A stretch of DNA of 63,031 nt, the filler included, from Folioceros fuciformis (lineage: Eukaryota), in NCBI GenBank assembly GCA_049999805.1. It is 18 parts of 18 records of this genome, joined end to end, with 100 filler letters (N's around TTAATTAATTAA, not from the genome) between each part and the next. Parts side by side here need not be neighbours in the genome. Positions count along the whole stretch, not along the records: positions 22,605 to 23,984 come from JBNGIO010006694.1; 17 more parts are not named here. One strand, written 5' to 3'. Shown here in pieces: positions 61-51,413 of the stretch; the first letter of the stretch is position 1; each line of letters opens with the position of its first letter. The notes under the pieces were generated by a model that was given only the letters and a program-made list of their open reading frames with translations, was not told where the DNA came from and did not search any database. The translations under genes were made by a program, and so were the position numbers.

Positions 61-930
61 ATTCTGAATCATGCCGTAGTTCGGTATTACCAATGCCCCG
101 CGTCATTGGATCAAGGCCGCAATTTTAATTGACCCAAGGAAGCGGGAACGGCGGCTTGTTTTCAACATTCTACGATGTCTTAGGAGCGCAATTAGGCGTC
201 TTTTCTCCCTGATGTTGATAGGGATGGACAGGACAAACGCTCTCTCCAGAGACCGCGCAAATTAGAACACGCAAGTAATTTTGGCAGGCACAAAGCAAAT
301 GGGAGTGTTTTGAGAGAAAGCACAAGTGACTTGCTTACAAATATGCCTTGCAGGAGGAATGACAGCAGATTCCAACATTGCTGTAATCAGCCAGCACGTG
401 AATACACTTGCTGTCATCAGCAGTATACACAGACTCCTACACGATGCAATAGTTCAGTTTTTCCTGTCCAGAGTAAAGACCCAGCACTCTTGGCCATTAA
501 GAACCTCAGATCACACTTAAGACTTCTGCAAGAATACACACATGTAGCAAAACATAATCATAAGAAAGAACTGATCTCTTTGCACAAACAAATTGGAGTT
601 TTGACTAAGCAATTTACACGACTGTCACATGACTTTGCTAACTTAGAACTAGTTGCTGCAACCCGTCTTCATACAAACAAATCACCTGACATCTCCTGTT
701 CAGATTCCTCCTACGGCTACTTGCTCATGCCTGAACCCATTGAACAAGTCTTAGAGTCTCTCTCCACCATGTTTGGGGAAGATCCCAATACTGTCTGACC
801 CCTTAGCCATTAGGTCAGCGAGGCTAATTGTAGCATAGCCTTATTTTGCATGTGGTCTCCTCCAAACAGATCTTTACATTATATCCCACGTTTTCCCAGA
901 CCAGTCCCTTTTCCTCACACAGTACAAACC

Positions 931-3900: not shown

Positions 3901-5334
3901 GACGGTTCAGTAGCCCGCTATAAGGCCAGGTTAGTGGCGAGGGGCTACACTCAGGTCCATGGTCTGGATTACACAGAGACCTTTAGCCCAGTTGTAAAGC
4001 CAACGTCTATGCGTATATTACTCTGCTATGCTGTCAAACATAAGTTGATTGTCCATCAAATGGACGTCAAGACCGCTTTTTTAAATGGAGATCTTACCGA
4101 GGTGATTTTTATGAACCAGCCTGAGGGCTATATTGTCGATCACACCAAGGTATGTAGACTCCTGAAATCCCTGTATGGATTAAAACAGTCAGCACGCCTA
4201 TGGAATTCACGTGCTGATAAGAAACTACGCAAGCTGGGTTTTGTACCTCTAGCTGCTGATTGCAGCGTCTATGTCCTCAAGAAGACCAATCAGATATGCA
4301 TCATTGCTTTGTATGTTGATGATAATTTCATCTTCGCAAGTGACAACCAGATCCTGACCTACATCAAGCGAGAACTCTCCCAGGAGTGGGACATGACTGA
4401 TGTCGGACCTTTAAAGTTTGCACTTGGCATTCAGTTTGCTTTTGATATGGGCAAGACCTGTGTATGTATTCATCAATCACATTTTATACGTCAGCTTCTC
4501 ACTAAATTTAATCTGCTGGATGTAAACCCAGTCTCTACTCCAGTTTCCACTAGTGACAAGCTATCTATTGAGGACAGCCCAACTACTGATAATGAACGAG
4601 CAGCTATGTCAACTATACCTTACAGAGAGGCAGTTGGGAGCCTTTTATATTTAGCTGGCTGGACTCGTCCAGATATTTCCCAGGCTGTCGGTATAGTCTC
4701 ACGCTTCCTCAGCAACCCTGGACAAAAGCATTGGGTCGCTGTGAAACGTATCCTTCGTTATTTGAAAGGGACCCAACACATGTATCTGGAGTATTCACAA
4801 CATGGCAGCAGTATTCTTACCTCGTTTTCTGATGCCGACTGGGCAGGGGACATTGATTCTCGGAAGTCTATAGCAGCTTATTGTGTCCTGCTGCAAGGTT
4901 CAGCAATCAGTTGGCAATCAAAAAAGTTATCCACTGTCAGTCTCTCCTCAACCGAGGCAGAGTATGGTGCTCTTTCGCTTGCTGCTCGTGAGATCACTTG
5001 GGTCAGACAGTTTCTTGATGGTATTCACTGGGAGCAACCTGGAGCAACCCTGTTGCAGTGCGACAACCAGTCAGCTATCGCGCTGACAGCCAACCCCATC
5101 CTGCACGCGCGATCAAAGCATATTGAGATTCAATTTCATTTTATCCGTCAAGCAGTGGAAATGGGAATCATACAGCTCCAATATGTTCACACCTCAGCCA
5201 ACATTGCTGACATTCTTACTAAGGGACTCCCTAAGATGTCACATGATCAGCATAGATGCTCCCTCGGGCTTAATGATTCCACCAACACTTATCTTAAAGC
5301 AGCGAGTCGGGATCCTCCTCTGGATTCAGCTTGA
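931..5334 (+). pseudogene. Copia Gag-Pol polyprotein with one in-frame premature stop
   Basis: ATG 931 (MATGGGG); zinc knuckle CHWCRIPGHFEHEC; protease WFLDSGATNH; integrase HHCC (WHCRMCH...CENC) and catalytic core; RT YVDD; RNase H DADWAGD. TGA at 3826-3828 replaces the conserved W of N-K-T-W-E-L-V and the frame continues to 5334. Confidence 0.93.
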
Positions 5335-5946: not shown

Positions 5947-6046
5947 NNNNNNNNNNNNNNNNNNNNNNNNNNNNNNNNNNNNNNNNNNNNTTAATTAATT
6001 AANNNNNNNNNNNNNNNNNNNNNNNNNNNNNNNNNNNNNNNNNNNN
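5947..6046. other. Artificial contig-joining spacer (first of 17)
   Basis: 100-nt N run with central TTAATTAATTAA (stops in all six frames). The same spacer begins at 12431, 15789, 22505, 23985, 26428, 29159, 31641, 32917, 36720, 38693, 41588, 43691, 46077, 47604, 55825 and 60608. The N run at 9623-9722 lacks the motif and is an intra-scaffold gap. Confidence 0.98.
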
Positions 6047-7055
6047 GCAATTGTGTGTATATGTGGTAATACACGCAATTCAATTTATCAACATGGTATC
6101 ACAGCATTAATGTTGTATATTTCTATAGGTGCAATGTTTCTATCCTGGTGTATTAGATGTCTGTAGAAAGGAGTACGTTCTCTTGATACAAAGTCTCTTC
6201 TACTCTTACACATCTGCATCAGCGATGGGTTTTTAACCGAGATATTGCACGATAGAAAATGCAAACGCAAAATTTCCGCCGCGCGGATCTGGCTGCTTTA
6301 CGGCAGCAGGTTCGACTGTTTTAAATCCGGTTGAAGATGACTCGACGGGGACGATCTCGCGTCGAGCGATCCACATCTCCCACCTGCCATCAATACAGAG
6401 AGAGGAATCAAATTTTCAGGATTCGAGAGGGGTCGGATCTGGAGGAGACTTTTCAATCCAGTGTCCCTGATCTACCTGAAATTGTTGGAGCATATAGGAT
6501 GCTCAACAATCGGCTTACCACAACGGAAACAGTACTTCTTGCTACTCTTTCTCGGCAGAGCGAGATTCACACTGCCCGGCATCAGGAATTTCTGGAAGCC
6601 ATTGATCATCTCCTGCGCAGGCAAACCTTCGCTATTAAAGGGCGTTCAGCAACTTACAGATCTGGTCACAGATTTGCAGCGGCGAGTTGCCTTCAAATTC
6701 GAAGTCCTAGCCTCTGAATGCTCTGGCTTCGCCGCGCGAGATGCCTAGATCGCAACCGTCGCCAGATGCTTGCTGAAGGGGCGCGTTGGCTGCTTGCGTG
6801 GCATCGCCGATTCCTCCCGCCGCAGCGTCGGTGTGGGTGCCCTATGCGCCTCCTCCCGGTTGCCTGCGCCCTTTCACTCCAGCCGCGAAGCGCTGGGTCT
6901 CGGCCCCAATCGACAACCATCTATGTCGGTTGACACCTCTTGATTGCCTCGCTCCTTCACCTTGCAATCCTTGCAATCCTGACCCATTTTTTTGAAGATG
7001 ACCCTGTACCAGCCTGATCACCTGGATTAGCGTCTTCTTCACAAAGCAGGTCAGC

Positions 7056-10000
7056 ATGGCCACAGGAACAGGCGGAGGAGGAGGAACAGGAGGAAGTGCA
7101 GTAGGTGGTGGCGGAGGGGGAGGAGGTGTAGTCACCCTCCCGCTCCCTGCCGTACCTGTGATTCCTCAGCCATCCTACTCTGTTGAGTTCAAGGAGCGGG
7201 ATCGATTTAATGGGATGAAATTCGAAGGTTGGAAGGTGCGCATGACAGCTGCCCTGCAAGCGAGACACGTTTGGGGAGTTGTTAGTGGCACGCTTAAGGA
7301 ACCTCCACAATCTGCCACACAGGAGGAAAAGGACAAATGGGCAAACCTGAATTATGTCGCTCGCGCCGTCTTAATTAGCGGACTGGATGAGACACTGCTT
7401 GCAGACGTTGCCTTCCTCACCAAGGCTGACGAGATTTGGACTCTCCTGACTCAGACTTATGAAGCCAAAAATATTCTTACCATGTGTGCCGTTCGAGGAG
7501 AGCTCTTCTCTCTGCGTCTTAAGGAGGGTGAAAAGGTGTCCCCTTTTGTCATCCGTTTTCGCCAACTTCGTGCCCAACTCATCAACTTGGGTTCTCAATT
7601 CCCGGAGCTTGATGCAGTTAGTCAGTTGTTGACGAGTCTGCCCCCCAACTATCAGACTTTCGTCTCCAGCTATGGTGCCACAGTTCGCGCTGCTGATGCT
7701 GCTCGGGCCGCAGGTTAGCCTACCAACATCAACCTGGCTGATGTTATTGGCGCCTTGCTACAGGAAGAACAAAGCAGGGCTACTTCTACTTTACATGGTG
7801 GACGAACCAGGACAGACAAGGTCCTTTCGACTCAAGTAAAGCAAAACCGGAGGAAACCTACCTCGAGTGGAGGTGCAGGTTCTTCGAAGACCATTTCTGT
7901 GAAACATACTGGCGCCTGTAATTGGTGTGGTATACAGGGCCACTGGGAGAGAGAATGTCGGAAGAAAAAATCTGGCGAGCCTCGTAAAGCTGAGAAGCCT
8001 TTGAAACAGGCTGAGGCACACTTGGCTGCCAAGGATCGGCTTTCTCAGTCGATCACAAGTAAACCACCTGTCGTCATGACAATCTGTCTTGTGTCTTCTG
8101 CACATCCTTCCCCACAGTGCTGGTATTTAGATTCAGGAGCTACATCTCATATTTGCAAAGATAAGTCCCTGATTAGCAATTTTCAGTCATCTACCACTTC
8201 AGATAAAGTGCTTTTGGGTGATGAACTTACCCGTACAGGTCTGCAGATAGAAGGCTCTGGGTCCTGTCGCTTTATATTGCATGATGGTTCCATCCTTCAC
8301 TTGGATAACGTCCTGTATGTGCCCCGCATGGCTAAACATCTGCTTTCTGTTAGCCAACTTATGTCCTTACGCACTTTCGATCTGCTCTTCACTTCTTCAC
8401 GCTGTGAGCTTATGAAGAGAGGGGAGAGAGGTAAGGTAGTTGCTACAGGACACTTAGTGCACGATTTATATCAACTTGATTTAAAAGCCATACCTGTGGA
8501 CACTGCCAATGTCACTCTGTCCACCCAAGCTGCTCAAGCCAGTCTCTGGCACGCACGTCTAGGACATGCCAATCGGGATAAGCTCATCAAGATGTCCAAC
8601 CTAACCTGTTACAGGGAACCACTGCCCAAATGTTTCAAGGACTTGCCTTTGTGCGATGCTTGTGTGATAGCAAAGCAAAAGGAAGTGCCCTTTCCCAAAC
8701 AGACAGCATATAGAGCTTCTCAGATTCTGGACCTCGTGCACACAGACATCTCTGGGAAGATTCACATACCTTCTCTAGGTGGTGCCTTGTATTATCTTAC
8801 ACTCACGGATGACTTCAGTAGGTATTCATGGACCTACCCGATGCGTTTGAAGTCAGACACCTTTGCTTTCTTCCAGGAATGGCTGCAGATGGTTCAGAAA
8901 CAAACAGGTCGCCAGCTGAAGTGCTTGCGTTCAGATAATGGTACAGAATTTACACATGGCAACTTCAACCAGTTTCTTCTTGACCGAGGGATTGTCCGTC
9001 AGCTCATAGTCCCTTATACCCAGCAGCAGAATGGCATTGCTGAGCGCCGCAACCAGACCCTGTTAGGCATGACGCGCAGCATGCTGGAATGGTCAGGTCT
9101 CAGCAAAGCATTCTGGGCAGAAGCAGTGGTGACTGCGACTTACATCCTTAATCGTCTCTTGACAAGTGCTGTGGATGGCAAAACACCTTATGAGGTTATA
9201 TGGCAAAGGAAGCCGAGTTTACTTCATCTTCGAGTATTTGGCTCTCCTGCTTATGCATATATCCCTGCTGAAAAGCGAAGAAAGTTAGATGCACGGGCTA
9301 AACCCCTGCTGTTTGTTGGGTATGGTGAAGAAGCGAAAGCTTACAAGTTGTATGATTCACTCACCCAGTCAGCACAATTCGCTAGGAGTGTTACCTTTCG
9401 AGAACTCATCAGTCCTGCCAAACCTTATTTTGAATCAACACTTTCTGTACCAGCGAATCTTACCGATGCAGATGCCAGTGCAGAAGAGGACCTGTCTGAG
9501 TTCCCCCAGGATGATTTTATTGATGTCAGCTCAGTGGTCCAACCAGTTGTTTTGCCTGACCCTGGTCTCTTGCAGTTTCCAGTGGCACAACCCGTTGCTC
9601 CTGCTGCTGCTGCCGGTGTCCCNNNNNNNNNNNNNNNNNNNNNNNNNNNNNNNNNNNNNNNNNNNNNNNNNNNNNNNNNNNNNNNNNNNNNNNNNNNNNN
9701 NNNNNNNNNNNNNNNNNNNNNNCCCTTCCTGCTCCTCCGCCTGAACACCGGTACCCCACTCGTGAGAGAGTGCCCCCTGCTCACTGGAAGGAGCCTCCGT
9801 ATCAGTCTGTGGACTATCGGCGTCCTAGGGCTGGCATGTCTCTCAAGACTAATAACTCTGAGTTTCCTTTTCTCAAGCCTGAGCCCCGCACTTACACTGA
9901 AGCTGTTACTGGCCCAGACAAAGCACACTGGATTCCATCCATCAAGGATGAGTATGACTCGCTTATCAAGAATGGTACCTGGGATCTCTGTCCTCTGCCT

Positions 10001-11461
10001 GTTGGCCGCAAAACTGTCAGTTGTAAGTGGGTTTTCAAGCATAAACTGAATGAAAAAGGGGAGATTGCTAGATACAAATCCCGTCTTGTGGCTCGGGGTT
10101 TTACTCAGATTCCCGGTGTTGACTTTCAAGAAACCTTCAGTCCTGTCGTCAAAACCCAGTCCATCCGAATGATACTTGCCCTCGCCGCTGCCAATGCTTG
10201 GGACTTGCAACAGATGGACGTGTGTACCGCCTTTCTGTACGGTGAGCTTGACGAGGACATCTATATGCAGCAACCTGAAGGTTTTATTGCTCCAGACCAT
10301 CCTACCTGGGTGTGCCGTTTAAAGAAGACCATTTACGGTCTTAAGCAATCCGCCCGGGAATGGTACAAAACCATCGACAAGTATTTGCAGTCCATTGGTT
10401 TCGTGCAGAACCCTGGTGATGCCAACGTGTATATATATACCAAAGGAGGTCATCTCGTCATACTGGCCTTGTACGTTGATGACGCTATTCTGGCATCAAA
10501 CAACTCTGAGTTACTTGCCTGGGTCAAGGGCATGCTGCACCAACAGTTTGACATGAAGGACATCGGCCCTCTTACCTTTGTTCTTGGGGTTCAACTTGTC
10601 CGCAACTTGGAGGATCAGACTCTCATGCTTCACCAAAGCAAATATATTGCCGAAACTCTCTGCCGTTTTCACCTTGATTCTGCCAAGCCCGTTTCCACCC
10701 CTGGTGTTCCAGGTCTCAAGCTTTCTGCTGATGACTGTCCACAAGATGATCATGAGCGCCAGGCTATGTCTCAGTTTCCATATCGTCACGCTGTTGGCTG
10801 TCTGAATTACATCAGCTGTTGGACCCGCCCTGATATTCAATACGCTGTTAGCTCGGTTTCCCAGTTCCTTGACAATCCTGGCCAAGTTCACTGGGCAGCC
10901 GTCAAGCGTATCTTGCGCTATCTTAAAGGCACAATGAATCACGGCTTATGCTTCAGGGGGCGAGATACAACACCTACCGTGTGTGGTTATGCCGATGCTG
11001 ATTGGGCAACAAACCCTGACGCCAGACGAAGCATATCAGCCTACTGTTTCATTCTCTCAAATGCTGTTGTTCACTGGAGCTCAAAGAAGCAGGCTTCCGT
11101 TTCTCTGTCCTCTACTGAGGCAGAGTACAAAGCCCTAACTGAAGCTGCCAAAGAAGCAATTTGGGAGCGTGCCTTCCTGCAGGGTCTTGGTTTTCCACAG
11201 CTGAAGCCCACTCTTATCCACTGCGACAATGTTTCCACTATCAGTATGACAGCAAACCCGCGTTTCCATGCCCGAACAAAGCACATCGAGGTGCAGCATC
11301 ATTTTATTCGTCAACAAGTGGAACAGAAGGTGGTGCGACTTCAGCATGTCTCAACAGATTACAACACTGCAGACTTGTTGACCAAGTACCTGCCCGCGAG
11401 TAAACATTATCAATTCATGGAGGCGATGGGTGTTGCACCATGTTCTCCGTCTCAATCCTGA
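7056..11461 (+). pseudogene. Copia Gag-Pol polyprotein (one in-frame TAG, 100-N gap)
   Basis: MATGTGGGG start; TAG at 7716-7718 inside gag with the frame continuing (AAG*PTNINLADVIGALLQEE); CNWCGIQGHWEREC; WYLDSGATSH; WHARLGH...CDAC; YVDD; DADWATN. The gap at 9623-9722 separates the INT and RT ORFs. Confidence 0.92.
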
Positions 11462-12122: not shown

Positions 12123-13362
12123 TGGTATCACAGCATTAATGTTGTATATTTCTATAGGTGCAATGTTTCTATCCTGGTGTATTAGATGTCTGTAGAAAGG
12201 AGTACGTTCTCTTGATACAAAGTCTCTTCTACTCTTACACATCTGCATCAGCGATGGGTTTTTAACCGAGATATTGCACGATAGAAAATGCAAACGCAAA
12301 ATTTCCGCCGCGCGGATCTGGCTGCTTTACGGCAGCAGGTTCGACTGTTTTAAATCCGGTTGAAGATGACTCGACGGGGACGATCTCGCGTCGAGCGATC
12401 CACATCTCCCACCTGCCATCAATACAGAGANNNNNNNNNNNNNNNNNNNNNNNNNNNNNNNNNNNNNNNNNNNNTTAATTAATTAANNNNNNNNNNNNNN
12501 NNNNNNNNNNNNNNNNNNNNNNNNNNNNNNGCCTGTGCGTCGCCAAGTGTCGCTTGCGATCTGGGTGGATCACGGACTCAAGGGCTCAGGACTCCGGTGC
12601 AGGCCCGGAATTCGGCTCAGATCCGGGAATCGGTGGGATCGGGGCCGTGCTTGGTCCCGCCTGCTAGCAACCGTGGATGCATGGTGTCTTAACACTAGAC
12701 AACTACAACATCCCTGTCATAAGTTGGGTTCTGACTTGCAGAGATCAGGGCTGTTTAACACAGGCTGTTGTTGACGGCCATTCTGGAGTCTGTGACTGCC
12801 AGGGCAGAAGAAACGTGCTTTCGAGGTACCAGACCCACTTCTTATTTCCCGGAGAAGGCCGCCACGTTCACGAAATAAGCGCCTAGTGTATGATGCTGAA
12901 AATTGCAATCCGAATAAGGTGTCGGGTCCGCACAATCACAGAGTCGATCAAGGTTCATATACGCATTCACGAACCTGGAAGCGCCGTACTATCCCCTGAA
13001 GTGTATCAACGTGACAGCGTTGTTCAGGCGACGGGGTTTGATTGTCCTTCAACGGGCACTAGCAACGGCGATCCTCCACAAGGCAGCAACATTATGTGAC
13101 ACTTTCTCTGCCCCGTGGATTGTAGACCTGTTTTTCTCAAGAAACTAATACATGCACACAGAATTAACACAAGGAAAACGGCCACAAGTACCTCCAAAAT
13201 GGAGAGGACTCAAACCGACATCCTCAACGTGCACTTGAGCACTTGAAAGTGTGGTATGAAAGGCCGGCAAGTTTCGAATCTGCTTGTCCTACTGCATCCA
13301 CGATTCGATCGAGGAAGCAAGTGCGTCCCGCATCTTGCCTAGGCATTTTTAGGGAGCTGAAA

Positions 13363-15788
13363 ATGGCACGGGGCGAGGAGCTAGACGTTAGTTGTACCGA
13401 CGTTTGTTCTTGGGCTCGTGGTTTGGCTGACCCATTGGAATCTATCCCTGAGAAAGAAAGAAACCGCACCATAGTTGATACTGCAAATGCACTTGAAGGA
13501 TTCTTAGAGTGTGCGGAAGGGGAGACTGCCCCAATAGACGCTGATAGGCTAGGCGCCTTGAGTTGTGGTCTTTCAATTCTATGGAAGTATGGGGTGGAGA
13601 GGAGTCGGGATGCTGTGGTTCTGGGCCTAGAGGAGGGCAACGCGGCAATGAAGGAGGCAAAATTGAGAGCGAACGAGCTGTACAAGATCTTGGTGCAGGA
13701 AGAGGACATCGAGCGGCGAATGACAATAGAGACGGAGCTGACCAGAATCACCACTCAGCTCTTCCACCACCAAGACTCCAGCCGGCGGGCGGTGCTCAAG
13801 GCCACGAGGTCTGTGAGAGCCCGCTACCACGGGCTGGCGGCGAGGCTAGCACGGTTAGCCAGAGCCAGGCCAGCCGTTCAGCATCCTTCTGACGCAAGCG
13901 CGTGGGATCTGGATGGTGCTTTCAAAGTGGAATGTGACCAGTGCGCAGACACAGGTGCTCAGGCGCTTTTGGCTTGCAAAATCAGCGACGAACTGCTGCA
14001 AAGGAACATACTACAGTCGTCCGTCAAGGATCCTTTCTCCCTAGGACCTTCCAATGCGGAGTTCCTCCCGGCATCCTCTCTGTGCATCAAGTGTTCTTCC
14101 TTGGCGACCGAGAGTTCTGTGTGTCCCTACACCCGCCGGCAGCTGGCCACCTTCTTCCCTGTTGTTAGGTACACGAAGAGGAACATGATGCATCTAGCCT
14201 CGAATGCCAGCCACTGGCTGTTTGACGGAAAGGAGCTCGGCACAGAGTGCCAGGCACTGCTCTCTGTCTTTGAGTCTGCAAGGTGTCACGGGAGGAACAT
14301 CCTGTCGGCTCTGGAGTTCATGGAGAAGGAGTACATCCCGCACTTGCAAGCGAATTTTGAAGGGTTTGAAGGCCACAGCAAGCCCCTGTGTAGTGCCATC
14401 TGTGAGATGTTCCACCCTGCAGGGCTGGGCCTGGGAGGGTTGCCTGCAGGGCCTGCATTCCCCAATCTCGAGGATCTCCTTCTTGTCCTCCGCCGCAAGA
14501 GTTTGACTTCAGTCATGATACTCGGCCGCTTGGGGATCAGGATGGGCGCCATCGGGTCAGCACAGGATGTCAGCAACATGGTGAACAGGATGCTATTCAA
14601 GTGGATCGTAGTGCGTCTGGTGAGATGGCGGCGCAACCGGACGAATGAGAATTTGGAGGATCTGGGTAGACTGCTGGAGGCAGACCTCTTCGACACAGAT
14701 GCCGGATTCCCGGTCAAGGGCTCCGGACGGTTGCTTTCCTCTCTTGGGGGCTCCAAGTTCCTTTGCACCATCTTCGGGGAGAAGACCCTGGCGTCCACTT
14801 TGGAGCAGAGGTTGTTGGAGCCTGCCCGAATATCGTTAGAAATGGTGACTTTGCTGTTGTACATCCTGTTGAGGGATGGGTTGATTCTGCGCTCACCGGG
14901 CAGCGGGACGGAGGGACTCATCCGACGACTGGCCGGTAAGCATCCGCTGCTTTGGCTCGCATTCGCCTGTCCAGTGGGAGTGGAGGCCCAAGAAGTGGGT
15001 AAGCTCATGGCGCAACACCACCAGAGGTTTGGAAGCATCCAGGACGACGTGCACAGGGAGGTGATCCCCTGCTTCTCCCCTGCCCACTTACGGGGCCCTG
15101 CTGTATTGTGCTGTGGCTGCTGCGGAGCTGGATTCATTCGCCAGCAAGAGATCCAAGACTACCTCCACGCTTCTGACGAGGTTGTGAAACTTACCATCGC
15201 CGAAATAGTTAAGGGCCGCCGCAGCCAGCACTTCCGCCAAGTGTTTGCGAGCGACAGAGAGTCTGGAATGGTGGGCTACAATTCCGGCCACAGTAACCTC
15301 CACCGGGCTGTGGCGACTGTCCTGCCGCGACTAGTGGAGCAGCGGGAGGAATCCAAGCCTCCGGGACCCACCCGCTCCATGGTGCTCCATGTCTTAGCCT
15401 ACCTCTGGCGGTTTCCGAAAGGCGGGCACCTTCACCACCCGCACTTCCTCTTTCACCTTGCTGCCTGCCTTTTTGATTACGTGGAGCAGAGTAGGAGAAT
15501 GCATCCTTCCGCAGAGGTTGCTTATTATTCAAACTCCCCTGGTAGCAACAGCCACTTGTCCTTCCGCGAGCGACTCTCAGCGGAAATCTCTTATTATGTG
15601 GCTAAGAATTTGCCGAAGACGCTCACGTCGGCCGCAGGCAGTGACGAGGCGCGGCACTGGTTGGAAGTGTTTCCGCCTGTGAGCCTGCAGAATCGGGACC
15701 CTCTCCTCTTGGAGGAGCTTACCAGAGCCGTGGCCATTCACGAGCTCCAATTTACCAACGAAAACTCACCCGTAAGAGCCCCCATTAT
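13363..15788 (+). CDS. Intronless uncharacterised protein (>808 aa, 3' truncated) with CxxC...CxxC-PxTR and CCGCCG motifs
   Basis: Uninterrupted frame from 13243 (first ATG 13363) to the contig end; helical N-terminus; ECDQC...LCIKC...CPYTRR; later PAVLCCGCCG, RSQHFRQVF and SGHSNLH. Confidence 0.8.
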
Positions 15789-16527
15789 NNNNNNNNNNNN
15801 NNNNNNNNNNNNNNNNNNNNNNNNNNNNNNNNTTAATTAATTAANNNNNNNNNNNNNNNNNNNNNNNNNNNNNNNNNNNNNNNNNNNNAGTACGCTGAGC
15901 ATGTACGTGATTCCTGCCTGGACAGTCGAAGCTGGCAACCAAGTCACGGATGTAACGGCACAGGAGGCATGTTCGATTTGAGATGTGATGGAAGCAAGCC
16001 ACGGTACAGGGTAGGGTTAACACACTGGTCGGACAGTTAGAGCCTCGCCCTCTGAGCCGACGGTATGATCGGCGCCAATTGAGGGTGGAAGGCCAATCGT
16101 GGACAAAGAGTAAAATAAATACAAGATGAAAAGTGAAAAGAACCGGGTCTACATGCGTCGCAAGAATCTTGCGACACCTGATACCCCTCTGAGGCTTGAG
16201 CGTAAGAAGATGGAAACCAGGAACAAAACAAGCACGCTTGCCTTCCAAGGCAGAAACATCTAAGGTTGGCAATCGCGGCATACACAGTAACGTGCAATTC
16301 CGCAAATTCAGATTCGCATCTTAGCACTGCGAAATTCTACAATGTCCAGATGCGGAAGTGGAAGTGCTTCAACCCATGCGTCCAACGTCAATGCAAACAC
16401 GCCAAATTGCGAACACGTATACCCTAACCCGGAGTGTGCGCCACAGTGTCACAACCCTCCAGCAAGCACGCACAGCGTTTCCAAATTGCTCCAATTGTCC
16501 CAGATCTGAGGCACACCGGATCTGCCA

Positions 16528-19700: not shown

Positions 19701-20310
19701 TGAGCCTTCCGTCTGCCTGGGACCCGGAGGCATAGGCCTCGGGGCCCGCCAGTGCCACGCTTTCCCATCTCCTTTTTCTTACACCGAAGTTTCCACGTTC
19801 CATGGAGCAGTCGTATCCGTAGATGCAGACGTATCGCTGTGTGTCAGCGTCCGGTTTAAATTAATGGATTGCTTGCACGGAGAGCTGCAGCCAGCAAGTG
19901 GACCAGTGCAGGTGCAACGTTACCAACATCATTCCCTCTCACGAGGAGTCCTTACTGTCCGTAGACATGAAGTTTGAGGGGCGCCACTCGTACGGCTTGA
20001 TGCCTTGGTACCTTGATTTAGCGGCAGGCCTCGGGGCAAACTGATTCTCCGAGGAGAGAGGGAAGTTTCCCAGCCCAGGCTAACCCAGTTGATAACACGG
20101 CCCGCATGCAACAGGTTGCTTGCCTCTGCCTCACAGATTCCCACCTATAATTCCCGGCGCCCAGTGCAAGCACTGCCCTGCAGACGCAACTCCTGGCAAT
20201 GAAAGCCATGGAATCTGGCTGCTTCTAGTTGATGTAGACGGGGGGAGTCGCCGTGCAGAGGAGAGCAGGACCGGATTCCCAGGTCCCGGGACTCCGGTAG
20301 CTGGACGCAC

Positions 20311-21873
20311 ATGGCTTCCTGGGAAATGGCAGTGCAACCCACGGCCGGGACGCCCCCGCGCCCTTCCGGATCCACGGAGGAGCTGGAGGACGGCGGTGTC
20401 GGCATCAAGGAGCGTGGGCCTCCCACCACCTACCTGCAGCGACGCCTCAATGTGTTCCGGATCCGGAGGCAGGACCTGCTCAGAGAGGTGAGCGGCTCGC
20501 TGGGCGATCTGGGGACCTACGTCCCCATCGCCGTGGCGCTCACGCTCTACAACCACATTGACCTGGGCACCACGCTCATCTTCAACGGTTTCTTCAACGT
20601 CCTCACGGGCCTGCTATTCGACGTACCCATGCCGGTGCAGCCCATGAAGTCCATCGCGGCGGCCGCTCTCAGCGCCAACAAGCTCACCGTGAACCAGATC
20701 ATGACGGCGGGCCTCTCCGTCTCCTTCATCCTTGTCTTCCTCGGCATCTCGGGCCTCATGACCATCTTCAACTGGATCATCCCGCTGTCCGTGGTGCGGG
20801 GAATCCAGCTCGCGCAGGGGCTCAACTTCAGCCTCACTGCCGTCAAGTACATCCTCAACACGCAGGACTTCTCCAAGTCCAAGCCGTCTGGGCCCAATCG
20901 GCCCTGGAAGGGATGGGATGGCCGGATTCTGGCCATCTTCGCCTTCTGCTTCGTGATTGTGGTGAGCGGGGTGGGCGGGGAGCTGATGAGGAAGAAGAAG
21001 GTCACGGGCAAGGATTCGTACGACGAGGAGGCGGACAAGGACATCGCCTGCGCGGCCACCAAGTCGAAGGATTCCAGCAGCCTACCGGGCGTGCTGGCCA
21101 GGAAGGTGGATGCGTTTAACGCCAAGTTCTTCAAGACGGACGAGGAGGTTGCGGAGGAGGACGCGCAAGGGAAGGGGCTGGCCACGGTGCCCTCCTGCCT
21201 CATCATCTTCGTGCTGGGGATCATTCTGGCGTTCGCGCGCTACTCTAGCGTGGCCAAGAGCCTGAAGGCGGGGCCGAGTACCCCCAAAATCACGCACCCT
21301 ACCCGCCATGACTGGCGAGAGGGTTTCATCCGGGGAGCTATCCCGCAGCTGCCGCTTTCCGTGCTCAACTCTGTCATCGCCGTGGTGAAGCTGTCGGAGG
21401 ATCTCTTCCCTGGGAATCCGGATGTGTCGGTCATGCACGTCGCCACCTCGGTGGGGATGATGAACATTGTGGGGTGCTGGTTCGGGGCGATGCCGGTGTG
21501 CCACGGCTGCGGCGGGCTTGCTGGCCAGTACCGGTTTGGGGCGCGCTCCGGGCTGTCTGTGGTGATGCTGGGCGCGGGGAAGATGCTTCTGGGCCTGCTG
21601 CTGGGGAACTCGCTGGCCAAGATGCTGCAGCGCTACCCCGTGTCTCTGCTGGGTGTGCTGCTGCTCTACGCGGGTATTGAGCTGGCCATGACCGTGCGGG
21701 ACATGAACTCGCGCAAGGACATTTTCATCGTGCTCGTCATCACCTCGGTGGCCCTGCAGTGGAACAATGCAGCTTACGGCTTTCTCTGCGGATTGGCCGT
21801 GGCTTTGGTGTTCAAGGCCAGGGCCATCAAGCTCCAGGCTCTGCTGCATCCTTTCAGCAAGCCCGAACCCTGA
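20311..21873 (+). CDS. MOT1: Molybdate transporter, MOT1 family (520 aa, intronless)
   Basis: Family motifs GSLGDLGT, PMPVQPMKSIAA, PQLPLSVLNSVIAV and FGAMPVCHGCGGLAGQYRFGARSG; multiple transmembrane segments; high GC3. Confidence 0.93.
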   Translation: MASWEMAVQPTAGTPPRPSGSTEELEDGGVGIKERGPPTTYLQRRLNVFRIRRQDLLREVSGSLGDLGTYVPIAVALTLYNHIDLGTTLIFNGFFNVLTGLLFDVPMPVQPMKSIAAAALSANKLTVNQIMTAGLSVSFILVFLGISGLMTIFNWIIPLSVVRGIQLAQGLNFSLTAVKYILNTQDFSKSKPSGPNRPWKGWDGRILAIFAFCFVIVVSGVGGELMRKKKVTGKDSYDEEADKDIACAATKSKDSSSLPGVLARKVDAFNAKFFKTDEEVAEEDAQGKGLATVPSCLIIFVLGIILAFARYSSVAKSLKAGPSTPKITHPTRHDWREGFIRGAIPQLPLSVLNSVIAVVKLSEDLFPGNPDVSVMHVATSVGMMNIVGCWFGAMPVCHGCGGLAGQYRFGARSGLSVVMLGAGKMLLGLLLGNSLAKMLQRYPVSLLGVLLLYAGIELAMTVRDMNSRKDIFIVLVITSVALQWNNAAYGFLCGLAVALVFKARAIKLQALLHPFSKPEP

Positions 21874-22504: not shown

Positions 22505-22604
22505 NNNNNNNNNNNNNNNNNNNNNNNNNNNNNNNNNNNNNNNNNNNNTTAATTAATTAANNNNNNNNNNNNNNNNNNNNNNNNNNNNNNNNNNNNNNNN
22601 NNNN

Positions 22605-23984
22605 CATCAGCATCATGCGTGTGCCGTCATTGAGCCTAAGTGGAGGTGAGTGTAACTTCCATCAGCAAAGAAATAGCGAGGTGTTATACACGGCTGCAGT
22701 ACACTTCTTCTGAGCCTGCCACGACACGACAGGAAGCAGTAAGGTGCTCACCTCAAGATCTCTGCGGACCAGCTTCACAAGCAGATTTTGCAAGTCTAGC
22801 AGACTCATGTAGTTCTTCCTCGAAAAGTCCATCGCCTCTGGAACCTGTGATGACATGTCGGAGGGCCGTGGTGACATGATTAGCATATGCAATCAGTGCG
22901 TTATGGTCTTGTGTAAGACCACAAAATGACGGCGGTAGGAAACGACATCGTACCAGTTTCTCATCTTCAGTGACGTATGCAGTCCCCACATGCACTCCTG
23001 GCAAGGAGCTGTTCTCCGGAAGCACAAGGTTGCTCTTCTTGGGCGGCAGCGTAAGGATGGTGACCCCTGACTTCAAGCCGACCGGTTCGCTGTACTGGTT
23101 TTCTTCTGGTGTCAAGCACACAGAGAGTCGATGTCGGAGCCTTGCACTCAACAAGCCAAGGCTCCACCTGCAGCGCGTGATGATTCATTTCGGCCAGAAA
23201 TACTGTATTCCCGCCAGTGAGAGTGACGAACACAATTTAACTGTCCTCCTCACCAAGAAACAAAAGCAGCATTCCGTGACCAACACACTCACATGGCTCT
23301 GTTTATACTGTGGTGACCAACAAAGGTATACAGGCGGTTATACGCGGCGTTATCCGATACCTGGCAAAATTGTCAGCCACGCCATGAGTACGAGAGGCAT
23401 CTAACCACAGCTCCGGCTCAAAAAACAACCGAAACACACCTGCCAGAACTTCATACCAGGAAAAGCTTACGAATCTCATGCGCGATGGTGATGTTCTGGT
23501 GATCCAAGTTGGAGCGGTCCACCTTCTCCTCTTCTGCTCCGTCAAAACGAGGGTAGAAGGAAATAGGAGTGGTGTAATTCACGTCCACAGCTGGAACCGG
23601 ATCCTAAGACCAATCAGCTCAGTATCCCGACACCAAGCTCGAGCACATTCCAGCTGGAATCCAAACACGGCCACGCACCTAACACCTCCTTCAGGCGTCT
23701 AACCTTCTGAACAGCTGCCACAGCGCCACAGAGCTTGATCGCACTGCTCCAAACAGGCAGCCCTCGTTACAAGCATTCCCAACACCAAAGATCCAGCCAA
23801 CATCACCTAACCCTCCTGTACCGTCCCCTCCCCTCCGCAGCGCTCCTCACCTGGCAGGATAAAAATACTCATGATCCAGACGGTACGAGTGGCGCAGGAG
23901 CTGAGGAGGCCCAGCCCCGTCCCCCTCCACCACCTCCGACACTAGCACCTGGAACCTGAACATAGTAGTAGCCTTCTCCATAAC
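22605..23984 (-). CDS. Multi-exon class A beta-lactamase-like serine hydrolase (partial)
   Basis: Manual splicing of the minus strand: exon 23984-23851 joined to an exon starting 23743 gives EYFYPA-S-AIKL (SxxK); later exons give IAHEIRKLFL|VSDNAAYNRLYTFVG (SDN), WSLGLLSARLRHRLSV and MDFSRKNYMSLLDLQNLL. Introns are GT-AG. The gene runs off both contig ends. Confidence 0.8.
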
Positions 23985-26527
23985 NNNNNNNNNNNNNNNN
24001 NNNNNNNNNNNNNNNNNNNNNNNNNNNNTTAATTAATTAANNNNNNNNNNNNNNNNNNNNNNNNNNNNNNNNNNNNNNNNNNNNCTCATGATGTGGCTAT
24101 GTACAATACAGGCATCTATACTAAATTCTGAGGTATATTCATGTATGACGTACATATTTGGAAAAAAGAACAATGTGTCCAACCACTGTTCCTGTCGATA
24201 TTCCATACTTAGATGTAAAAGGTTATGGTAAAAGAAAATATCTATTATATATATATATATATATTCACATTATTTGAGTAAACATTGTAACAAACCCTAA
24301 ACCCTTTCATGAGCATCTCACGAAAGAAAGGACAGGTATATCCATTGCATCATATAATTTTAATATTTAATATGAATCAAAAAATAAAACATGATAGGCC
24401 TTCAAAGATTTTCCTATCCCCCGTCTGTTGGATAAAAAGATGCACTTGAGATCCTACTTTAAACAGTTTCCCAACAGGACAAGACCAATCCCTATACAGC
24501 AATTCAGCGTCTACTTTCGATGTCCGAGAAATCTTTCGATGTATCTGCATGTGGATAAGATAAGAGTATGTATTCTCATCAAAACTTTCGAAGAGGCATC
24601 GGCCGTTCAGTAGCAAGATCTACCGGGGCGAAATCCAAGCACCGAAAAGGGTTTCAAACTCTACTCAAATCGACTCGCTCGCGCCTTCTCGGCTTAAAGC
24701 AAAGGATCGTACAACAGCATACCCATATCTGCCTCCACCTCTAAGCATGTTCGTATGCGACTCATCTTGGTAAAGAACAGACAGGCCGCCTTTCTGAAGG
24801 CATCGAACGCATCTGCGCAAGTCTCATCAAACCCACACGACGAATCACGAGCAGAAATGTGAGCGGATAGCAACCTGTGTCGGAAGACATGCTGCTAGTA
24901 CTGAAGAGGACTTTCAGTCACAAGAACTGCACATGATTGATGGAAATTGCCGGAAAACACAATTGGACAGGAGGCAGCAGCCAAACCAACGGAGAAGCTC
25001 CCTAGCAGAGTCCCGGAAATATTGGAGCACTTCATACTTGGAGCAGCACAAGGTCCGAGGTACAATATCAAGGATGCCAAGACTCAAATTCGCTAGTGGT
25101 CATCTAATTTCCTATCTCTTGCTCAGTGAGATGTCGTGCACACTTCACGAGTTGCCCGCTTAAACCTAACCAGGAGCACAGTCTGAGCACAACATGATCT
25201 TTTTCCCCCTAAGAGATCGCATACAGGAGCCAAAAGAATGTCACTTGAAAGAGCAAAATACGGTGTCGCTCGAAAAGCTAGAGCAATAGGACTCGGAAAA
25301 CAGTGTCTTGGACGAGTATGACTTGGACGACCAAGTCATATGACTGGGGAGAGCAAAACCGATGAGAATTTGAAGAGAGAAGGCAGAAGACTAGCGACAT
25401 TTGGAAGAGCCAACAACAGTGTACATTGTAAGAGAAATCAACAGTCGATCACTTACGAAGAAAACCATTCTCACTTTGACGCAGGCAAAAGGGAAAGGGA
25501 AACCCAACATAGACAAGGTTTTGATCTTTGCAACAGCAACCATGACCTAATCTCTGCTGTGCCATAAGAGTGCCTCAGCGGTAGTGACAAAAAACAATTT
25601 CTCGTCATGGACATTTCTGATTCGATCGTAGTCGTCACAGGCACTCCACTCACTATTTGGAGGTAGATGCAAAGAATTTCTTCGAAACCTTCCTCAAAAC
25701 TCATGCAACAGAGACGGTGTGTGCAGGTGACAAAGAACCTTCAGAGCATCGCAATACAGCCGCACATGAATACCCACAACTACCTGTGGCTGGTGTTCAA
25801 TAACAAGCGCCATGGAGTGTGCAGGCATGCGAGAAGTGGTGCATACACTGAGAAGGCCACATTTTCCAGTGCCAAGACAGCGTACACACAAAGTCCAGAA
25901 GCAGCGTACCTCTGGAACTCCATCAGCATCTGTCCTGGAAGCAAGCAGCACCAACCGAGGATTACTCCACGACTAATCCAGTTACATCGATGACACCTCC
26001 AATCAGACCCGCTCCACCGCCCACGAAGTCATAGAGCTCAGGTGTAAGGGCAGCAAGCTCTGATATACTTCTGGGCAACAAGTGGCATATCCATGAAACT
26101 GTGAGAGCTTTCCCCCTGTTGATTGGCGGACAGGATCCACCTGAAAATGTTGTCTGCCACATCACAGCGGCACACAGTCAATTCTTCCTGCTACGATGGC
26201 GAGATGCCAAGCACTCTCGGCAGGAGCTGACTGCCCTCAAATACTCCACCTGCGGAAAGATGTGTAAGCATGGCTGCGAGAGGCTCAGTACCCTGCTGCA
26301 GGGTTGGCCGAAACCTCAAGCAATAGACCTAAAAGTTCGAAGCTGTTACCGATTGTTAGCGACATGACGCACAAGACGAAGCTCGCAACCTTCTGCCCCT
26401 TCAGATGACGACACCTTGTTGTCAACANNNNNNNNNNNNNNNNNNNNNNNNNNNNNNNNNNNNNNNNNNNNTTAATTAATTAANNNNNNNNNNNNNNNNN
26501 NNNNNNNNNNNNNNNNNNNNNNNNNNN

Positions 26528-50639: not shown

Positions 50640-51413
50640 GGCCATGGGTTCCTGTCGGATTGATTTCTGACTCTTGCTCAGGACGTCCAAATGTTTCCGG
50701 AAAAACAAAAAACTGTTGCAAAAAAATTGCTGCTTTCAGCACTTCCTCGTAGAACCCCTTGCTAGCCTTGACAGATTCATCTTTCTGTTGTTTGGTTCCC
50801 CTGAGAAGTTGCTCCTGAGTCATTCTGAAGGTTTGCTTGGGTACACACTAAGAAGAATCCACCTACCTGCTATCCACAACAGCACACATACATTATGAGG
50901 GGCCGTGGGTCACATAGTTGATGAGGTCTACAGGACGGGCCTTCAGAGCAAGCAAGACACTGGTGCATGCCGGTATTGAATCAGGTCACTCACAATCTCA
51001 TCAGCCCTGAATGATCTAAACACCTTTCTCGAAGCCATATTTTGAACACGTCTGTTGTGTCTCTAGAATCCGGCGTTCATCCTGTTGGGTGGAAGGATTG
51101 ACCTAAAAACTGGGGAACACCCATTCCACTAGGATGTGCTCGACTTCACATCGTTTTGCCCTAAGTGGTCTGTCCACCGAAGTGAAGCTTCACTACCGCC
51201 CCCACCAGTAGCAGCTGCTGGTGTTGCGACAGGTAGGGGGAGCATGCACGAGTCGAGCTGCCAGTGTGACTTAGAATTCTCACGGTTATGCTTGTAGTCT
51301 GCGGGTGCAGCATCATTGCCTGGGGCGCTGTTGTGCTGAGGGGCAGGACCAGCTGAACCTGCACAGGGGCCGAACGGTGTGGAAGGGGATTGAAGGGGTT
51401 CCGTGTCCTTAAG

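What the first reader, a model, noticed from the sequence alone, without database searches (positions are those of the whole stretch)
22605..23984. Intron-bearing plant gene for a bacterial-type class A beta-lactamase-like serine hydrolase
Seen: invisible in the ORF track, but GT-AG splicing rebuilds YFYPASAIK (the catalytic Ser codon is split by the intron 23850-23744) and VSDNAAYNRLY, followed by RLRHRLSV and MDFSRKNYMSL. Established: SxxK and SDN are active-site motifs of class A beta-lactamases and related penicillin-binding proteins, and some non-seed plants retain plastid peptidoglycan. Inference: a domesticated bacterial gene (by recollection most like Bacteroidota serine hydrolases) that could act on plastid peptidoglycan or on microbial beta-lactams.
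Basis: partly seen in the sequence, partly recalled or inferred. Interest (0 to 1): 0.7.

Follow-up and report, generated by a model that had tools for sequence, protein, structure and literature searches.

The report
Spliced plant beta-lactamase-fold hydrolase gene fragment
A small unplaced contig carries seven exons of a transcribed plant gene for a serine hydrolase with the fold of bacterial penicillin-destroying enzymes; the family is already in databases for mosses, lycophytes and green algae, but nobody knows what it does.

Summary
22605-23984 is one whole 1,380-nt contig between assembly linkers. It carries seven minus-strand exons (759 nt, 253 codons, no stop). All six GT-AG introns, including 23744-23850 that splits the Ser codon of S-A-I-K, are removed in contigs of one run and present in two DNA runs.

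The product is 69% identical to an unnamed relative and 55% to a Ceratodon (moss) protein. It keeps 35 of 37 family-conserved positions. It falls in a green-lineage clade beside Planctomycetota, Acidobacteriota and Verrucomicrobiota proteins (44-50% identity). Bacteroidota are more distant, and no cyanobacterium is among the best 80 bacterial loci.

Relatives pass Pfam Beta-lactamase2, and a modelled orthologue superposes on CTX-M-14 (Z 23.5). It is not a true class A beta-lactamase: the NCBIfam model gives 16.7 bits against a cut-off of 200, and no conserved Glu166 equivalent exists. The third box (K-I/V-G in relatives) lies off the contig.

Plant members have no N-terminal presequence, which argues against plastid targeting. 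In bacteria the gene sits directly downstream of lysA in 18 of 54 loci, which hints at a DAP or murein-peptide substrate.

Verdict: a real, expressed, fragmentary member of a known but uncharacterised family. Interest is moderate.

The parts
22505..22604 (.). Assembly linker (44 N + TTAATTAATTAA + 44 N). It marks the 3' break of the gene.
22605..22655 (-). Exon 7, cut by the contig end (LHSPPLRLNDGTRMMLM...).
   Evidence: Joint 22655|22752 in X3. It aligns with relatives.
22656..22751 (-). Intron 6 (96 nt, GT..AG).
   Evidence: table 5
22752..22844 (-). Exon 6 (31 codons; MDFSRKNYMSLLDLQNLLVKL).
22845..22953 (-). Intron 5 (109 nt, GT..AG).
22954..23167 (-). Exon 5 (214 nt; WSLGLLSARLRHRLSV...). 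This exon was the query that recovered the family.
23168..23292 (-). Intron 4 (125 nt, GT..AG). A second acceptor is used at lower depth (the exon then starts at 23202). It adds 35 nt and shifts the frame.
   Evidence: joints 23164|23290 (cut +3) and 23202|23293
23293..23360 (-). Exon 4 (68 nt) with the S-D-N box (codons 23357-23349).
   Evidence: (PF13354, 12.5 bits for this exon alone)
23361..23456 (-). Intron 3 (96 nt, GT..AG).
23457..23590 (-). Exon 3 (134 nt; VDVNYTTPISFYP...ITIAHEIRKLFL).
23591..23678 (-). Intron 2 (88 nt, GT..AG).
   Evidence: One X3 contig (23563-23708) also runs through it unspliced.
23679..23743 (-). Exon 2 (65 nt). It holds the third base of the Ser codon, then A-I-K (Lys codon 23736-23734).
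23744..23850 (-). Intron 1 (107 nt, GT..AG). It splits the codon of the nucleophile Ser.
   Evidence: joint 23743|23851
23851..23984 (-). Exon 1, cut by the contig end (...RFQVLVSEV...EYFYPA + AG of the Ser codon).
   Evidence: One X3 contig runs on 414 nt beyond 23984.
23985..24084 (.). Assembly linker. It marks the 5' break of the gene.

Best explanation
The contig holds the first two thirds (253 codons) of the catalytic domain of a nuclear, transcribed and spliced gene of a non-seed land-plant type. The gene belongs to a distinct, uncharacterised subfamily of the class A beta-lactamase fold (Pfam Beta-lactamase2, PF13354).

Shown for the subfamily:
- It occurs in streptophyte and prasinophyte algae, mosses, liverworts and lycophytes.
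- At 44-50% identity it also occurs in Planctomycetota, Acidobacteriota and Verrucomicrobiota, where sources name it 'serine hydrolase'.
- Its core is E-Y-F-Y-P-A-S-x-x-K, V-S-D-N, H-R-L, D-L-Q and N-K-[IV]-G-x-A-Y-G-F. About 125 extra residues are inserted into the beta-lactamase scaffold.

Inferred mechanism: Ser45 (window product numbering) is the acylated nucleophile, activated by Lys48. Ser113 and Asn115 and the K-x-G strand (off the contig) position the substrate carbonyl, as in all SxxK acyl-transferases.

Inferred function, my odds about 0.3: no Glu166-type deacylation base is conserved, plant members lack any targeting presequence, and the bacterial gene often follows lysA. I therefore read it as a cytosolic amidase or peptidase for a D-amino-acid- or diaminopimelate-containing peptide (murein-peptide-like), not a beta-lactamase.

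Inferred origin: the green-lineage copy most likely came by an old transfer from a non-cyanobacterial bacterium. The direction of transfer is not shown.
For: Gene reality:
- Seven exons give 759 nt with no stop.
- All six introns are GT..AG and are removed in X3 contigs. Four of the six have zero X3 cover. X1 and X2 DNA contigs are unspliced.
- X3 holds 0.58 of the sampled words; the exons make up 0.55 of the contig (759 of 1,380 nt).

Family:
- Exon 5 alone finds P0001 (E 1.1e-19, PF13354) and 27 representatives at E <= 1e-3.
- The joined product is 69% identical to P0001 over 238 aa (E 9.5e-121), 55% to Ceratodon P0030 (E 3e-97) and 46% to P0040 (unnamed source), the best hit of bacterial length (390 aa) (E 1.3e-67).
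- PF13354 is above its cut-off in 13 of 16 relatives.
- 35 of 37 columns that are at least 90% conserved in 118 family members are kept in the window product.

Fold:
- The AF2 model of P0030 has pLDDT above 90 over residues 11-395.
- Foldseek gives class A beta-lactamases at E about 1e-10.
- VIA-align gives Z 23.5, rmsd 3.0 A, with 251 of 263 residues of CTX-M-14 aligned.

Phylogeny and distribution:
- 19 of 20 eukaryote rows form one clade (SH-aLRT 95). The window product plus P0001 has 99.
- Named hits are Ceratodon, Calypogeia, Diphasiastrum, Selaginella, Klebsormidium, Closterium and Cymbomonas, plus three EukProt entries that I read as Mesostigma, Spirogloea and Chlorokybus.

Function leads:
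- No acidic column at 90% or more lies between SDN and KxG.
- lysA lies directly upstream on the same strand in 18 of 54 bacterial loci, 7 Planctomycetota and 11 Acidobacteriota. All 5 of 5 tested score above the lysA equivalog cut-off.
- Single loci have an LD-carboxypeptidase (L074) or a D-Ala-D-Ala dipeptidase (L072) as neighbour, and two have a PF00144 protein (L039, L058).
Against: - The K-x-G box and 23 other conserved columns lie beyond the contig end. Completeness of this particular gene is therefore not shown, and no other contig of the window holds the rest.
- The Pfam profile could not be run on the joined product. Single exons reach only 12.5 bits against a cut-off of 22.
- X3 is RNA only by the tool's guess. 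It also holds unspliced pieces over introns 2 and 4 and a frame-shifting alternative acceptor.
- The tree is unrooted and was a 'quick' search. Klebsormidium falls outside the green clade with weak support (87).
- lysA synteny is absent from the Verrucomicrobiota and Hymenobacter loci. lysA is a housekeeping gene, so the adjacency may be incidental.
- Absence of a transit peptide was judged by eye from alignments, not by a predictor. The window's own N-terminus is missing.
- No biochemical data exist for any member that I could find.
Confidence: 0.75

Rival explanations
1. It is a DD-peptidase or carboxypeptidase that works on the plastid peptidoglycan layer retained by non-seed plants.
For: Named eukaryote hits are only streptophyte and prasinophyte algae, a moss, a liverwort and lycophytes. 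No seed plant is among the 120 rows listed in either. Bacterial neighbours include lysA (18 of 54 loci), an LD-carboxypeptidase and a D-Ala-D-Ala dipeptidase. The catalytic boxes are those of penicillin-recognising enzymes.
Against: The plant and algal orthologues with an intact N-terminus (P0030, P0013, P0008, P0032, P0038, P0001, P0012, P0021) begin about 10-30 residues before the conserved core. Many bacterial members carry a signal peptide or lipobox there instead. No cyanobacterium is among the best 80 of 351 bacterial loci. No row is named Physcomitrium or Marchantia in the lists; this is weak evidence, because most rows carry no name.
Confidence: 0.12
2. It is a working beta-lactamase that protects the plant from microbial beta-lactams.
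For: The class A fold covers nearly the whole of CTX-M-14 (Z 23.5). S-x-x-K, S-D-N and K-x-G are invariant in the family. Three of 74 bacterial members have K-T-G.
Against: The NCBIfam class A equivalog NF033103 scores 16.7 bits against a cut-off of 200 for P0030 and gives nothing for P0001. No conserved Glu or Asp stands where the deacylating Glu166 should. Identity to solved class A enzymes is only 12-21%. About 125 residues are inserted. A plant has no obvious beta-lactam target outside the plastid wall.
Confidence: 0.08
3. It is a non-catalytic binding or sensor protein that only keeps the fold, like the BlaB protein of Streptomyces cacaoi.
For: The best Foldseek match is BlaB, 2wuq (E 1.2e-10). 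That BlaB lacks enzyme activity is my recollection and does not come from any call.
Against: Ser, Lys, Ser-Asp-Asn and Lys-x-Gly are invariant or nearly so in 118 members across bacteria and plants, and 35 of 37 conserved columns are kept here. That pattern is what a working active site would show.
Confidence: 0.07
4. The contig is a contaminant (bacterial or from another organism) or a dead gene fragment.
For: It is a 1,380-nt unplaced contig cut at both ends. An alternative acceptor shifts the frame, and X3 holds unspliced pieces.
Against: Six spliceosomal introns rule out bacterial DNA. Runs from two studies carrying the same organism label hold it at 99% or more. It lies in the land-plant part of the tree. 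There is no stop in 253 codons and 35 of 37 conserved positions are kept. Contigs of X1, X2 and X3 run on beyond both ends.
Confidence: 0.03

Closest known systems
Uncharacterised 'serine hydrolase' / 'Beta-lactamase class A catalytic domain-containing protein' subfamily of PF13354. Examples: Ceratodon purpureus M758_8G077600 (P0030), Klebsormidium nitens KFL_000500260 (P0038) and Planctomycetota/Acidobacteriota MAG proteins P0047 and P0149.
   Same: Same family. Identity is 55% to the moss protein and 44-50% to bacterial members, collinear over all seven exons. The conserved blocks are the same.
   Different: The window copy is a fragment that lacks about 30 N-terminal residues and everything from about residue 280 of P0030 onwards. 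Land-plant members add a disordered C-terminal tail ending in C-Y-K-Y-F-[LV]-D-E that bacteria lack. Bacterial members often carry a signal peptide.
Ambler class A beta-lactamases (CTX-M-14, 6v5e; Toho-1; BlaC).
   Same: Same fold: Z 23.5, rmsd 3.0 A, 251 of 263 residues aligned. The S-x-x-K and S-D-N boxes and the third K-x-G strand are shared.
   Different: Identity is 12-21%. About 125 extra residues are inserted. No conserved Glu166 equivalent exists. The third box is K-I/V-G, not K-T/S-G, in most members. The NCBIfam bla_class_A model scores 16.7 bits against 200.
LRA-5, a metagenomic class A beta-lactamase precursor (8eo5; mutant Y69Q/V166E is 8eo7).
   Same: It is the best hit of the family profile among PDB sequences (E 0.014) and is near the top by fold. 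The title of the mutant entry implies that the native protein also lacks Glu at position 166.
   Different: The sequence match is marginal and covers only the stretch from SxxK to SDN. LRA-5 has the normal class A length without the insertions.
BlaB of Streptomyces cacaoi (2wuq).
   Same: Best Foldseek E-value (1.2e-10, TM 0.71 on the target). It is a class A-like fold that is not a classical resistance enzyme (the last point is recalled, not from a call).
   Different: 16% identity. BlaB is an actinomycete protein linked to bla regulation (recalled). No kinship beyond the fold is shown.

Membership tests
Pfam PF13354 Beta-lactamase2 | The window's own product scores above the gathering cut-off (22 bits). 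| not testable with these tools
Of the five exons scanned alone (1, 3, 4, 5, 6), only exon 4 matches: 12.5 bits, E 0.093.
Pfam PF13354 Beta-lactamase2 | The closest relatives score above the cut-off. | tested here: met
   P0001 (69% identical over 238 aa) scores 32.2 bits. 13 of 16 relatives pass; the 3 that fail lack the N-terminal (SxxK) part of the domain.
Class A beta-lactamase fold | A 3-D model superposes on solved class A enzymes over the whole domain. | tested here: met
   This was tested on orthologue P0030, not on the window product. Z 23.5, rmsd 3.0 A, 251 of 263 residues of CTX-M-14 aligned. Foldseek E is about 1e-10.
Bona fide Ambler class A beta-lactamase | Ser70-x-x-Lys73. | tested here: met
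   S-A-I-K at product residues 45-48. The Ser codon is split by intron 1.
Bona fide Ambler class A beta-lactamase | Ser130-Asp-Asn132. | tested here: met
   S-D-N at 23357-23349, product residues 113-115. It is invariant in 118 members.
Bona fide Ambler class A beta-lactamase | Glu166 on the omega loop (deacylation base). | tested here: not met
   No Glu or Asp column reaches 90% between SDN and KxG in the 118-member alignment. This is judged from conservation, not from residue-level superposition.
Bona fide Ambler class A beta-lactamase | Lys234-Thr/Ser-Gly236. | tested here: inconclusive
   The box lies beyond the contig end. Relatives have K-x-G with x mostly I or V. K-T-G occurs in 3 of 74 bacterial ORFs.
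Bona fide Ambler class A beta-lactamase | NCBIfam equivalog NF033103 at 200 bits or more. | tested here: not met
   16.7 bits for P0030, 15.5 for P0025, and nothing for P0001, P0047 or P0040.
Plastid peptidoglycan enzyme set of non-seed plants | An N-terminal plastid transit peptide. | tested here: not met
   The window's N-terminus is missing. The orthologues with an intact N-terminus start 10-30 residues before the conserved core. No targeting predictor was available.
Plastid peptidoglycan enzyme set of non-seed plants | Cyanobacterial (endosymbiont) ancestry. | tested here: not met
   No cyanobacterium is among the best 80 of 351 bacterial loci. The nearest are Planctomycetota, Acidobacteriota and Verrucomicrobiota.

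The most novel reading that the evidence does not exclude
An enzyme taken early in green-lineage history from a non-cyanobacterial bacterium (Planctomycetota, Acidobacteriota or Verrucomicrobiota type) and kept only by algae and non-seed land plants. It would work in the cytosol as an amidase for diaminopimelate- or D-alanine-containing murein peptides. Plants would thus have a way to degrade, salvage or sense bacterial (or leaked plastid) wall fragments. The plant-only C-terminal tail (C-Y-K-Y-F-L-D-E), which the model folds back on the domain, would regulate it.
Probability: 0.12. Interest if true: 0.65.

Novelty: new member of a known kind. Interest (0 to 1): 0.38.

Why it matters
The gene itself is ordinary as a find. 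Orthologues are already deposited and auto-named for a moss, a liverwort, lycophytes and several green algae.

What is open is the family's function. It is a well-conserved enzyme with an intact active site and a beta-lactamase fold. Bacteria and non-seed plants share it at nearly 50% identity, it was not seen in seed plants in my lists, and I found no characterisation of it in six literature searches.

- Plant members lack a targeting presequence.
- In two bacterial phyla the gene follows lysA.

Together these point to a diaminopimelate or murein-peptide substrate rather than antibiotics. If that is right, it would bear on how early land plants handled bacterial wall fragments and on the fate of peptidoglycan-related genes in plants.

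Tried and rejected
- No whole genome is held for this window, so the missing ends of the gene could not be sought in the assembly.
- tblastn of 16 relatives against the whole window found no further piece on any other contig at better than E 0.045.
- Pfam on single exons gave only exon 4, weakly.
- My first exon 2/3 boundary (donor at 23703, acceptor at 23604) was wrong. Homology and the X3 joint replaced it.
- PDB by sequence: the single protein gave nothing below E 0.29. The family profile gave a best E of 0.014.
- NCBIfam names no family for these proteins.
- Rfam finds nothing in the window.
- Plus-strand ORFs on the contig (174, 104, 82 and 79 aa) have no Pfam match and are taken as chance.
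- No RNA holder is listed on record for the contig. X3 is RNA by guess only. X5 (another organism, same study) laid nothing.
- The ESM Atlas returned only PF13354 bacterial clusters.
- Earlier findings of this scan returned nothing in three look-ups.
- Six literature searches found no paper on this plant family.
  - PMC9667741 (passage read) lists 'beta-lactamase' among plant genes of likely bacterial origin, but the details are in an external table I could not see.
  - PMC5324141 (passages read) does not treat eukaryotes.
- The first locus scan failed because alignment A1 had no conserved stretch. It was repeated with A2.
- In the neighbour scan, only 108 of 146 flank ORFs (54 of 73 loci) were scanned because of a size limit. 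Only the longest ORF on each flank was taken, so 18 of 54 is a lower bound.
- 6 of 80 bacterial loci were dropped from the tree because my ORF extraction did not recover the motifs.
Full report
**What the interval is**

The window is not one stretch of chromosome. It holds 17 copies of the word TTAATTAATTAA, each flanked by 44 N on both sides. It is therefore a chain of about 18 small contigs joined by 100-nt linkers. The finding, 22605-23984, is exactly one such contig of 1,380 nt. Two things follow:
- The genes beside it in the window are not its neighbours in the genome.
- Any gene on it may be cut at both ends.

**The observation**

Exon 5 alone (71 aa) found a 269-aa protein, P0001, at E 1.1e-19, with Pfam PF13354 on record. 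It also found 27 cluster representatives at E <= 1e-3. tblastn of P0001 against the contig aligned collinearly with all the coding pieces. It also corrected my first guess for the exon 2/3 junction.

The exon model, on the minus strand, is:
- 23984-23851
- 23743-23679
- 23590-23457
- 23360-23293
- 23167-22954
- 22844-22752
- 22655-22605

Joined in a script, these give 759 nt, 253 codons and no stop. S-A-I-K is at residues 45-48 and S-D-N at 113-115.

**Splicing**

Three runs hold the contig:
- X1 and X2 are DNA by the tool's guess, come from one sample, and may be the source of the assembly. They hold 1.00 and 0.96 of the sampled words.
- X3 comes from another study with the same organism label and is RNA by guess. 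It holds 0.58 of the words, close to the exon share of 0.55.

Laid on the contig, X3 contigs skip exactly the six predicted introns: 22656-22751, 22845-22953, 23168-23292, 23361-23456, 23591-23678 and 23744-23850. Each has CT..AC ends on the + strand, which is GT..AG on the gene strand. Four of the introns have bins with zero X3 depth. No X1 or X2 contig shows a joint.

X3 also holds:
- unspliced pieces across introns 2 and 4;
- a lower-depth joint to a second acceptor (the exon then starts at 23202), which adds 35 nt and shifts the frame.

X3 contigs run on 414 nt beyond 23984 and 176 nt beyond 22605. X1 and X2 contigs run on as well. So the gene continues in the organism and the assembly has broken it. 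No other contig of the window holds the rest.

**What family it is**

blastp of the joined product against the 141 proteins stored by then gave:

| Subject | Identity | Aligned | E-value |
|---|---|---|---|
| P0001 (unnamed relative) | 69% | 238 aa | 9.5e-121 |
| P0030, Ceratodon purpureus M758_8G077600 | 55% | 245 aa | 3e-97 |
| P0040 (unnamed source, bacterial length) | 46% | 257 aa | 1.3e-67 |

Further evidence:
- PF13354 (Beta-lactamase2) passes its cut-off in 13 of 16 relatives. The three failures are truncated.
- Single exons of the window are too short for the profile. Exon 4 gives 12.5 bits against a cut-off of 22.
- The joined product could not be given to the profile tool, so the profile match is indirect.
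- Added to a 118-member alignment, the window product keeps 35 of 37 columns that are at least 90% conserved in its span.
- 23 further conserved columns, among them K325-x-G327 of P0030, lie beyond the contig end.

**Fold**

An AlphaFold2 model of the moss orthologue, with 118 aligned sequences, has pLDDT above 90 for residues 11-395.
- Foldseek returns class A beta-lactamases at E about 1e-10. BlaB of S. cacaoi and LRA-5 rank first.
- VIA-align gives Z 23.5, rmsd 3.0 A, with 251 of 263 residues of CTX-M-14 aligned across model residues 12-387.

So the whole class A scaffold is present, with about 125 residues of insertions.

**Why it is not a class A beta-lactamase proper**

- The NCBIfam equivalog NF033103 scores 16.7 bits against a cut-off of 200.
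- Sequence identity to solved enzymes is 12-21%.
- The family profile reaches PDB sequences only at E 0.014.
- Between S-D-N and K-x-G no Glu or Asp column is conserved at 90%, so the Glu166 deacylation base has no evident counterpart.
- The third box is K-I/V-G in most members. It is K-T-G in 3 of 74 bacterial ORFs, which shows the box is homologous to K-T-G.

**Who has it**

Two searches of the 5.8-billion-protein collection were run:
- profile A1: 235 hits at E <= 1e-5, 120 listed;
- P0030 residues 1-400: 1,812 hits at E <= 1e-20, 120 listed.

The eukaryotes named in them are:
- Ceratodon
- Calypogeia
- Diphasiastrum
- Selaginella
- Klebsormidium
- Closterium
- Cymbomonas
- EukProt entries 'Mesvir1', 'Chlat1' and 'SM000...'. 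I read these from memory as Mesostigma, Chlorokybus and Spirogloea.

No seed plant, Physcomitrium or Marchantia is named in either list. Most rows carry no name, so this is weak evidence.

UniRef already calls the Klebsormidium and Cymbomonas proteins 'Beta-lactamase class A catalytic domain-containing'.

A scan of one genome per prokaryote species found 351 relatives. The best 80 are Planctomycetota (mostly Phycisphaerales), Acidobacteriota (Thermoanaerobaculia) and Verrucomicrobiota, with a few Myxococcota, Halieaceae and Hymenobacter (36-40%). No cyanobacterium is among them.

**Tree**

A quick IQ-TREE run covered 94 rows: 20 eukaryote and 74 bacterial. Six loci were dropped beforehand because my ORF extraction failed on them. 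Results:
- 19 of 20 eukaryote rows form one clade (SH-aLRT 95).
- The window product is sister to P0001 (99).
- That pair sits in a group (94) with the liverwort, lycophyte and moss sequences.
- Klebsormidium falls outside with weak support (87), next to the long Hymenobacter/Halieaceae branch.

The tree is unrooted, so the direction of transfer is not shown. It does not fit 'most like Bacteroidota'.

**Clues to function**

1. Targeting. Plant and algal proteins begin 10-30 residues before the conserved R-x-Q-V-L block. Many bacterial ones carry a signal peptide or lipobox there. No transit peptide fits in that space. This was judged by eye.
2. Plant-only tail. Land-plant members add a long low-confidence tail whose last ~20 residues (C-Y-K-Y-F-[LV]-D-E) are conserved and modelled at pLDDT 85.
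3. Bacterial neighbours. I scanned the longest ORF on each flank of 54 loci with Pfam, 108 ORFs in all.
   - The gene directly upstream on the same strand is an Orn/DAP/Arg decarboxylase in 18 loci: 7 Planctomycetota and 11 Acidobacteriota.
   - All 5 of 5 tested score 391-441 bits on the lysA equivalog, whose cut-off is 297.9.
   - Other neighbours include an LD-carboxypeptidase (L074), a D-Ala-D-Ala dipeptidase (L072) and PF00144 proteins (L039, L058).
   - lysA was not seen beside the Verrucomicrobiota or Hymenobacter copies.

**Reading**

- Shown: a real, spliced, conserved gene fragment of a PF13354 subfamily with the class A fold and intact S-x-x-K and S-D-N boxes.
- Inferred: acyl-serine catalysis as in all SxxK enzymes.
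- Inferred with low confidence (about 0.3): a cytosolic amidase or peptidase for a D-amino-acid- or diaminopimelate-containing peptide.

**Novelty**

The family is already in public databases under automatic names. Six literature searches found no study of it in plants.

PMC9667741 (passage read) mentions 'beta-lactamase' among plant genes of likely bacterial origin. Its table is external and I could not see it. That table, and the closed supplements of other gene-transfer surveys, may already list this family.

I rate the find as a new member of a known kind, of moderate interest.

Noticed in passing
window 1-63031 (linkers at 5947-6046, 12431-12530, 15789-15888, 22505-22604, 23985-24084 and 12 more): The window is a chain of about 18 small contigs joined by 100-nt linkers (44 N + TTAATTAATTAA + 44 N). 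Gene order across linkers means nothing. There is also a plain 100-N gap at 9623-9722.
   Followed up: yes
window 814-5334 and 7002-11461, + strand: Two Ty1/copia-type LTR retrotransposon reading frames (gag, integrase, RVT_2; E down to 2e-70), each on its own contig.
   Followed up: partly
window 20233-21873, + strand: An uninterrupted 546-codon frame in a 61% G+C stretch matches the MOT1-type molybdate transporter family (PF16983, E 1.7e-56).
   Followed up: partly
window 48030-50639 and 51357-52847, + strand: Two long open frames with SET domains, the first also with TPR repeats. An 873-aa frame at 13168-15787 has no Pfam match.
   Followed up: no
window 23202/23203 (within intron 4): A second 3' splice site is used in one X3 contig at lower depth (23.7 against 52.6). 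It adds 35 nt and shifts the frame. X3 also holds unspliced pieces over introns 2 and 4.
   Followed up: partly
L002-L074, about 1-1440 of each locus, + strand: In 18 of 54 bacterial loci, diaminopimelate decarboxylase (lysA) lies directly upstream of the family gene on the same strand. This is seen in Planctomycetota and Acidobacteriota but not in the Verrucomicrobiota or Hymenobacter loci.
   Followed up: partly
P0030 residues 545-563; also P0005, P0008, P0013, P0018 and P0032: Land-plant-type members (moss, liverwort, unnamed transcripts) end in a conserved C-Y-K-Y-F-[LV]-D-E-like tail after a disordered linker. The model gives the tail pLDDT 85, as if it packs on the catalytic domain.
   Followed up: no
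P0034 (Closterium, 1,207 aa); P0063 and L011 (bacterium, 876 aa): Fused forms exist: a GH5 cellulase domain (PF00150) plus PF25490 ahead of the hydrolase in the Closterium entry, and amidohydrolase domains (PF07969, PF01979) on record for the same bacterial protein. Either could be a gene-model artefact.
   Followed up: no
P0001 residues 264-269: The closest relative ends with a few unrelated residues and a stop exactly where intron 6 begins in the window. This looks as if its source contig keeps that intron.
   Followed up: no
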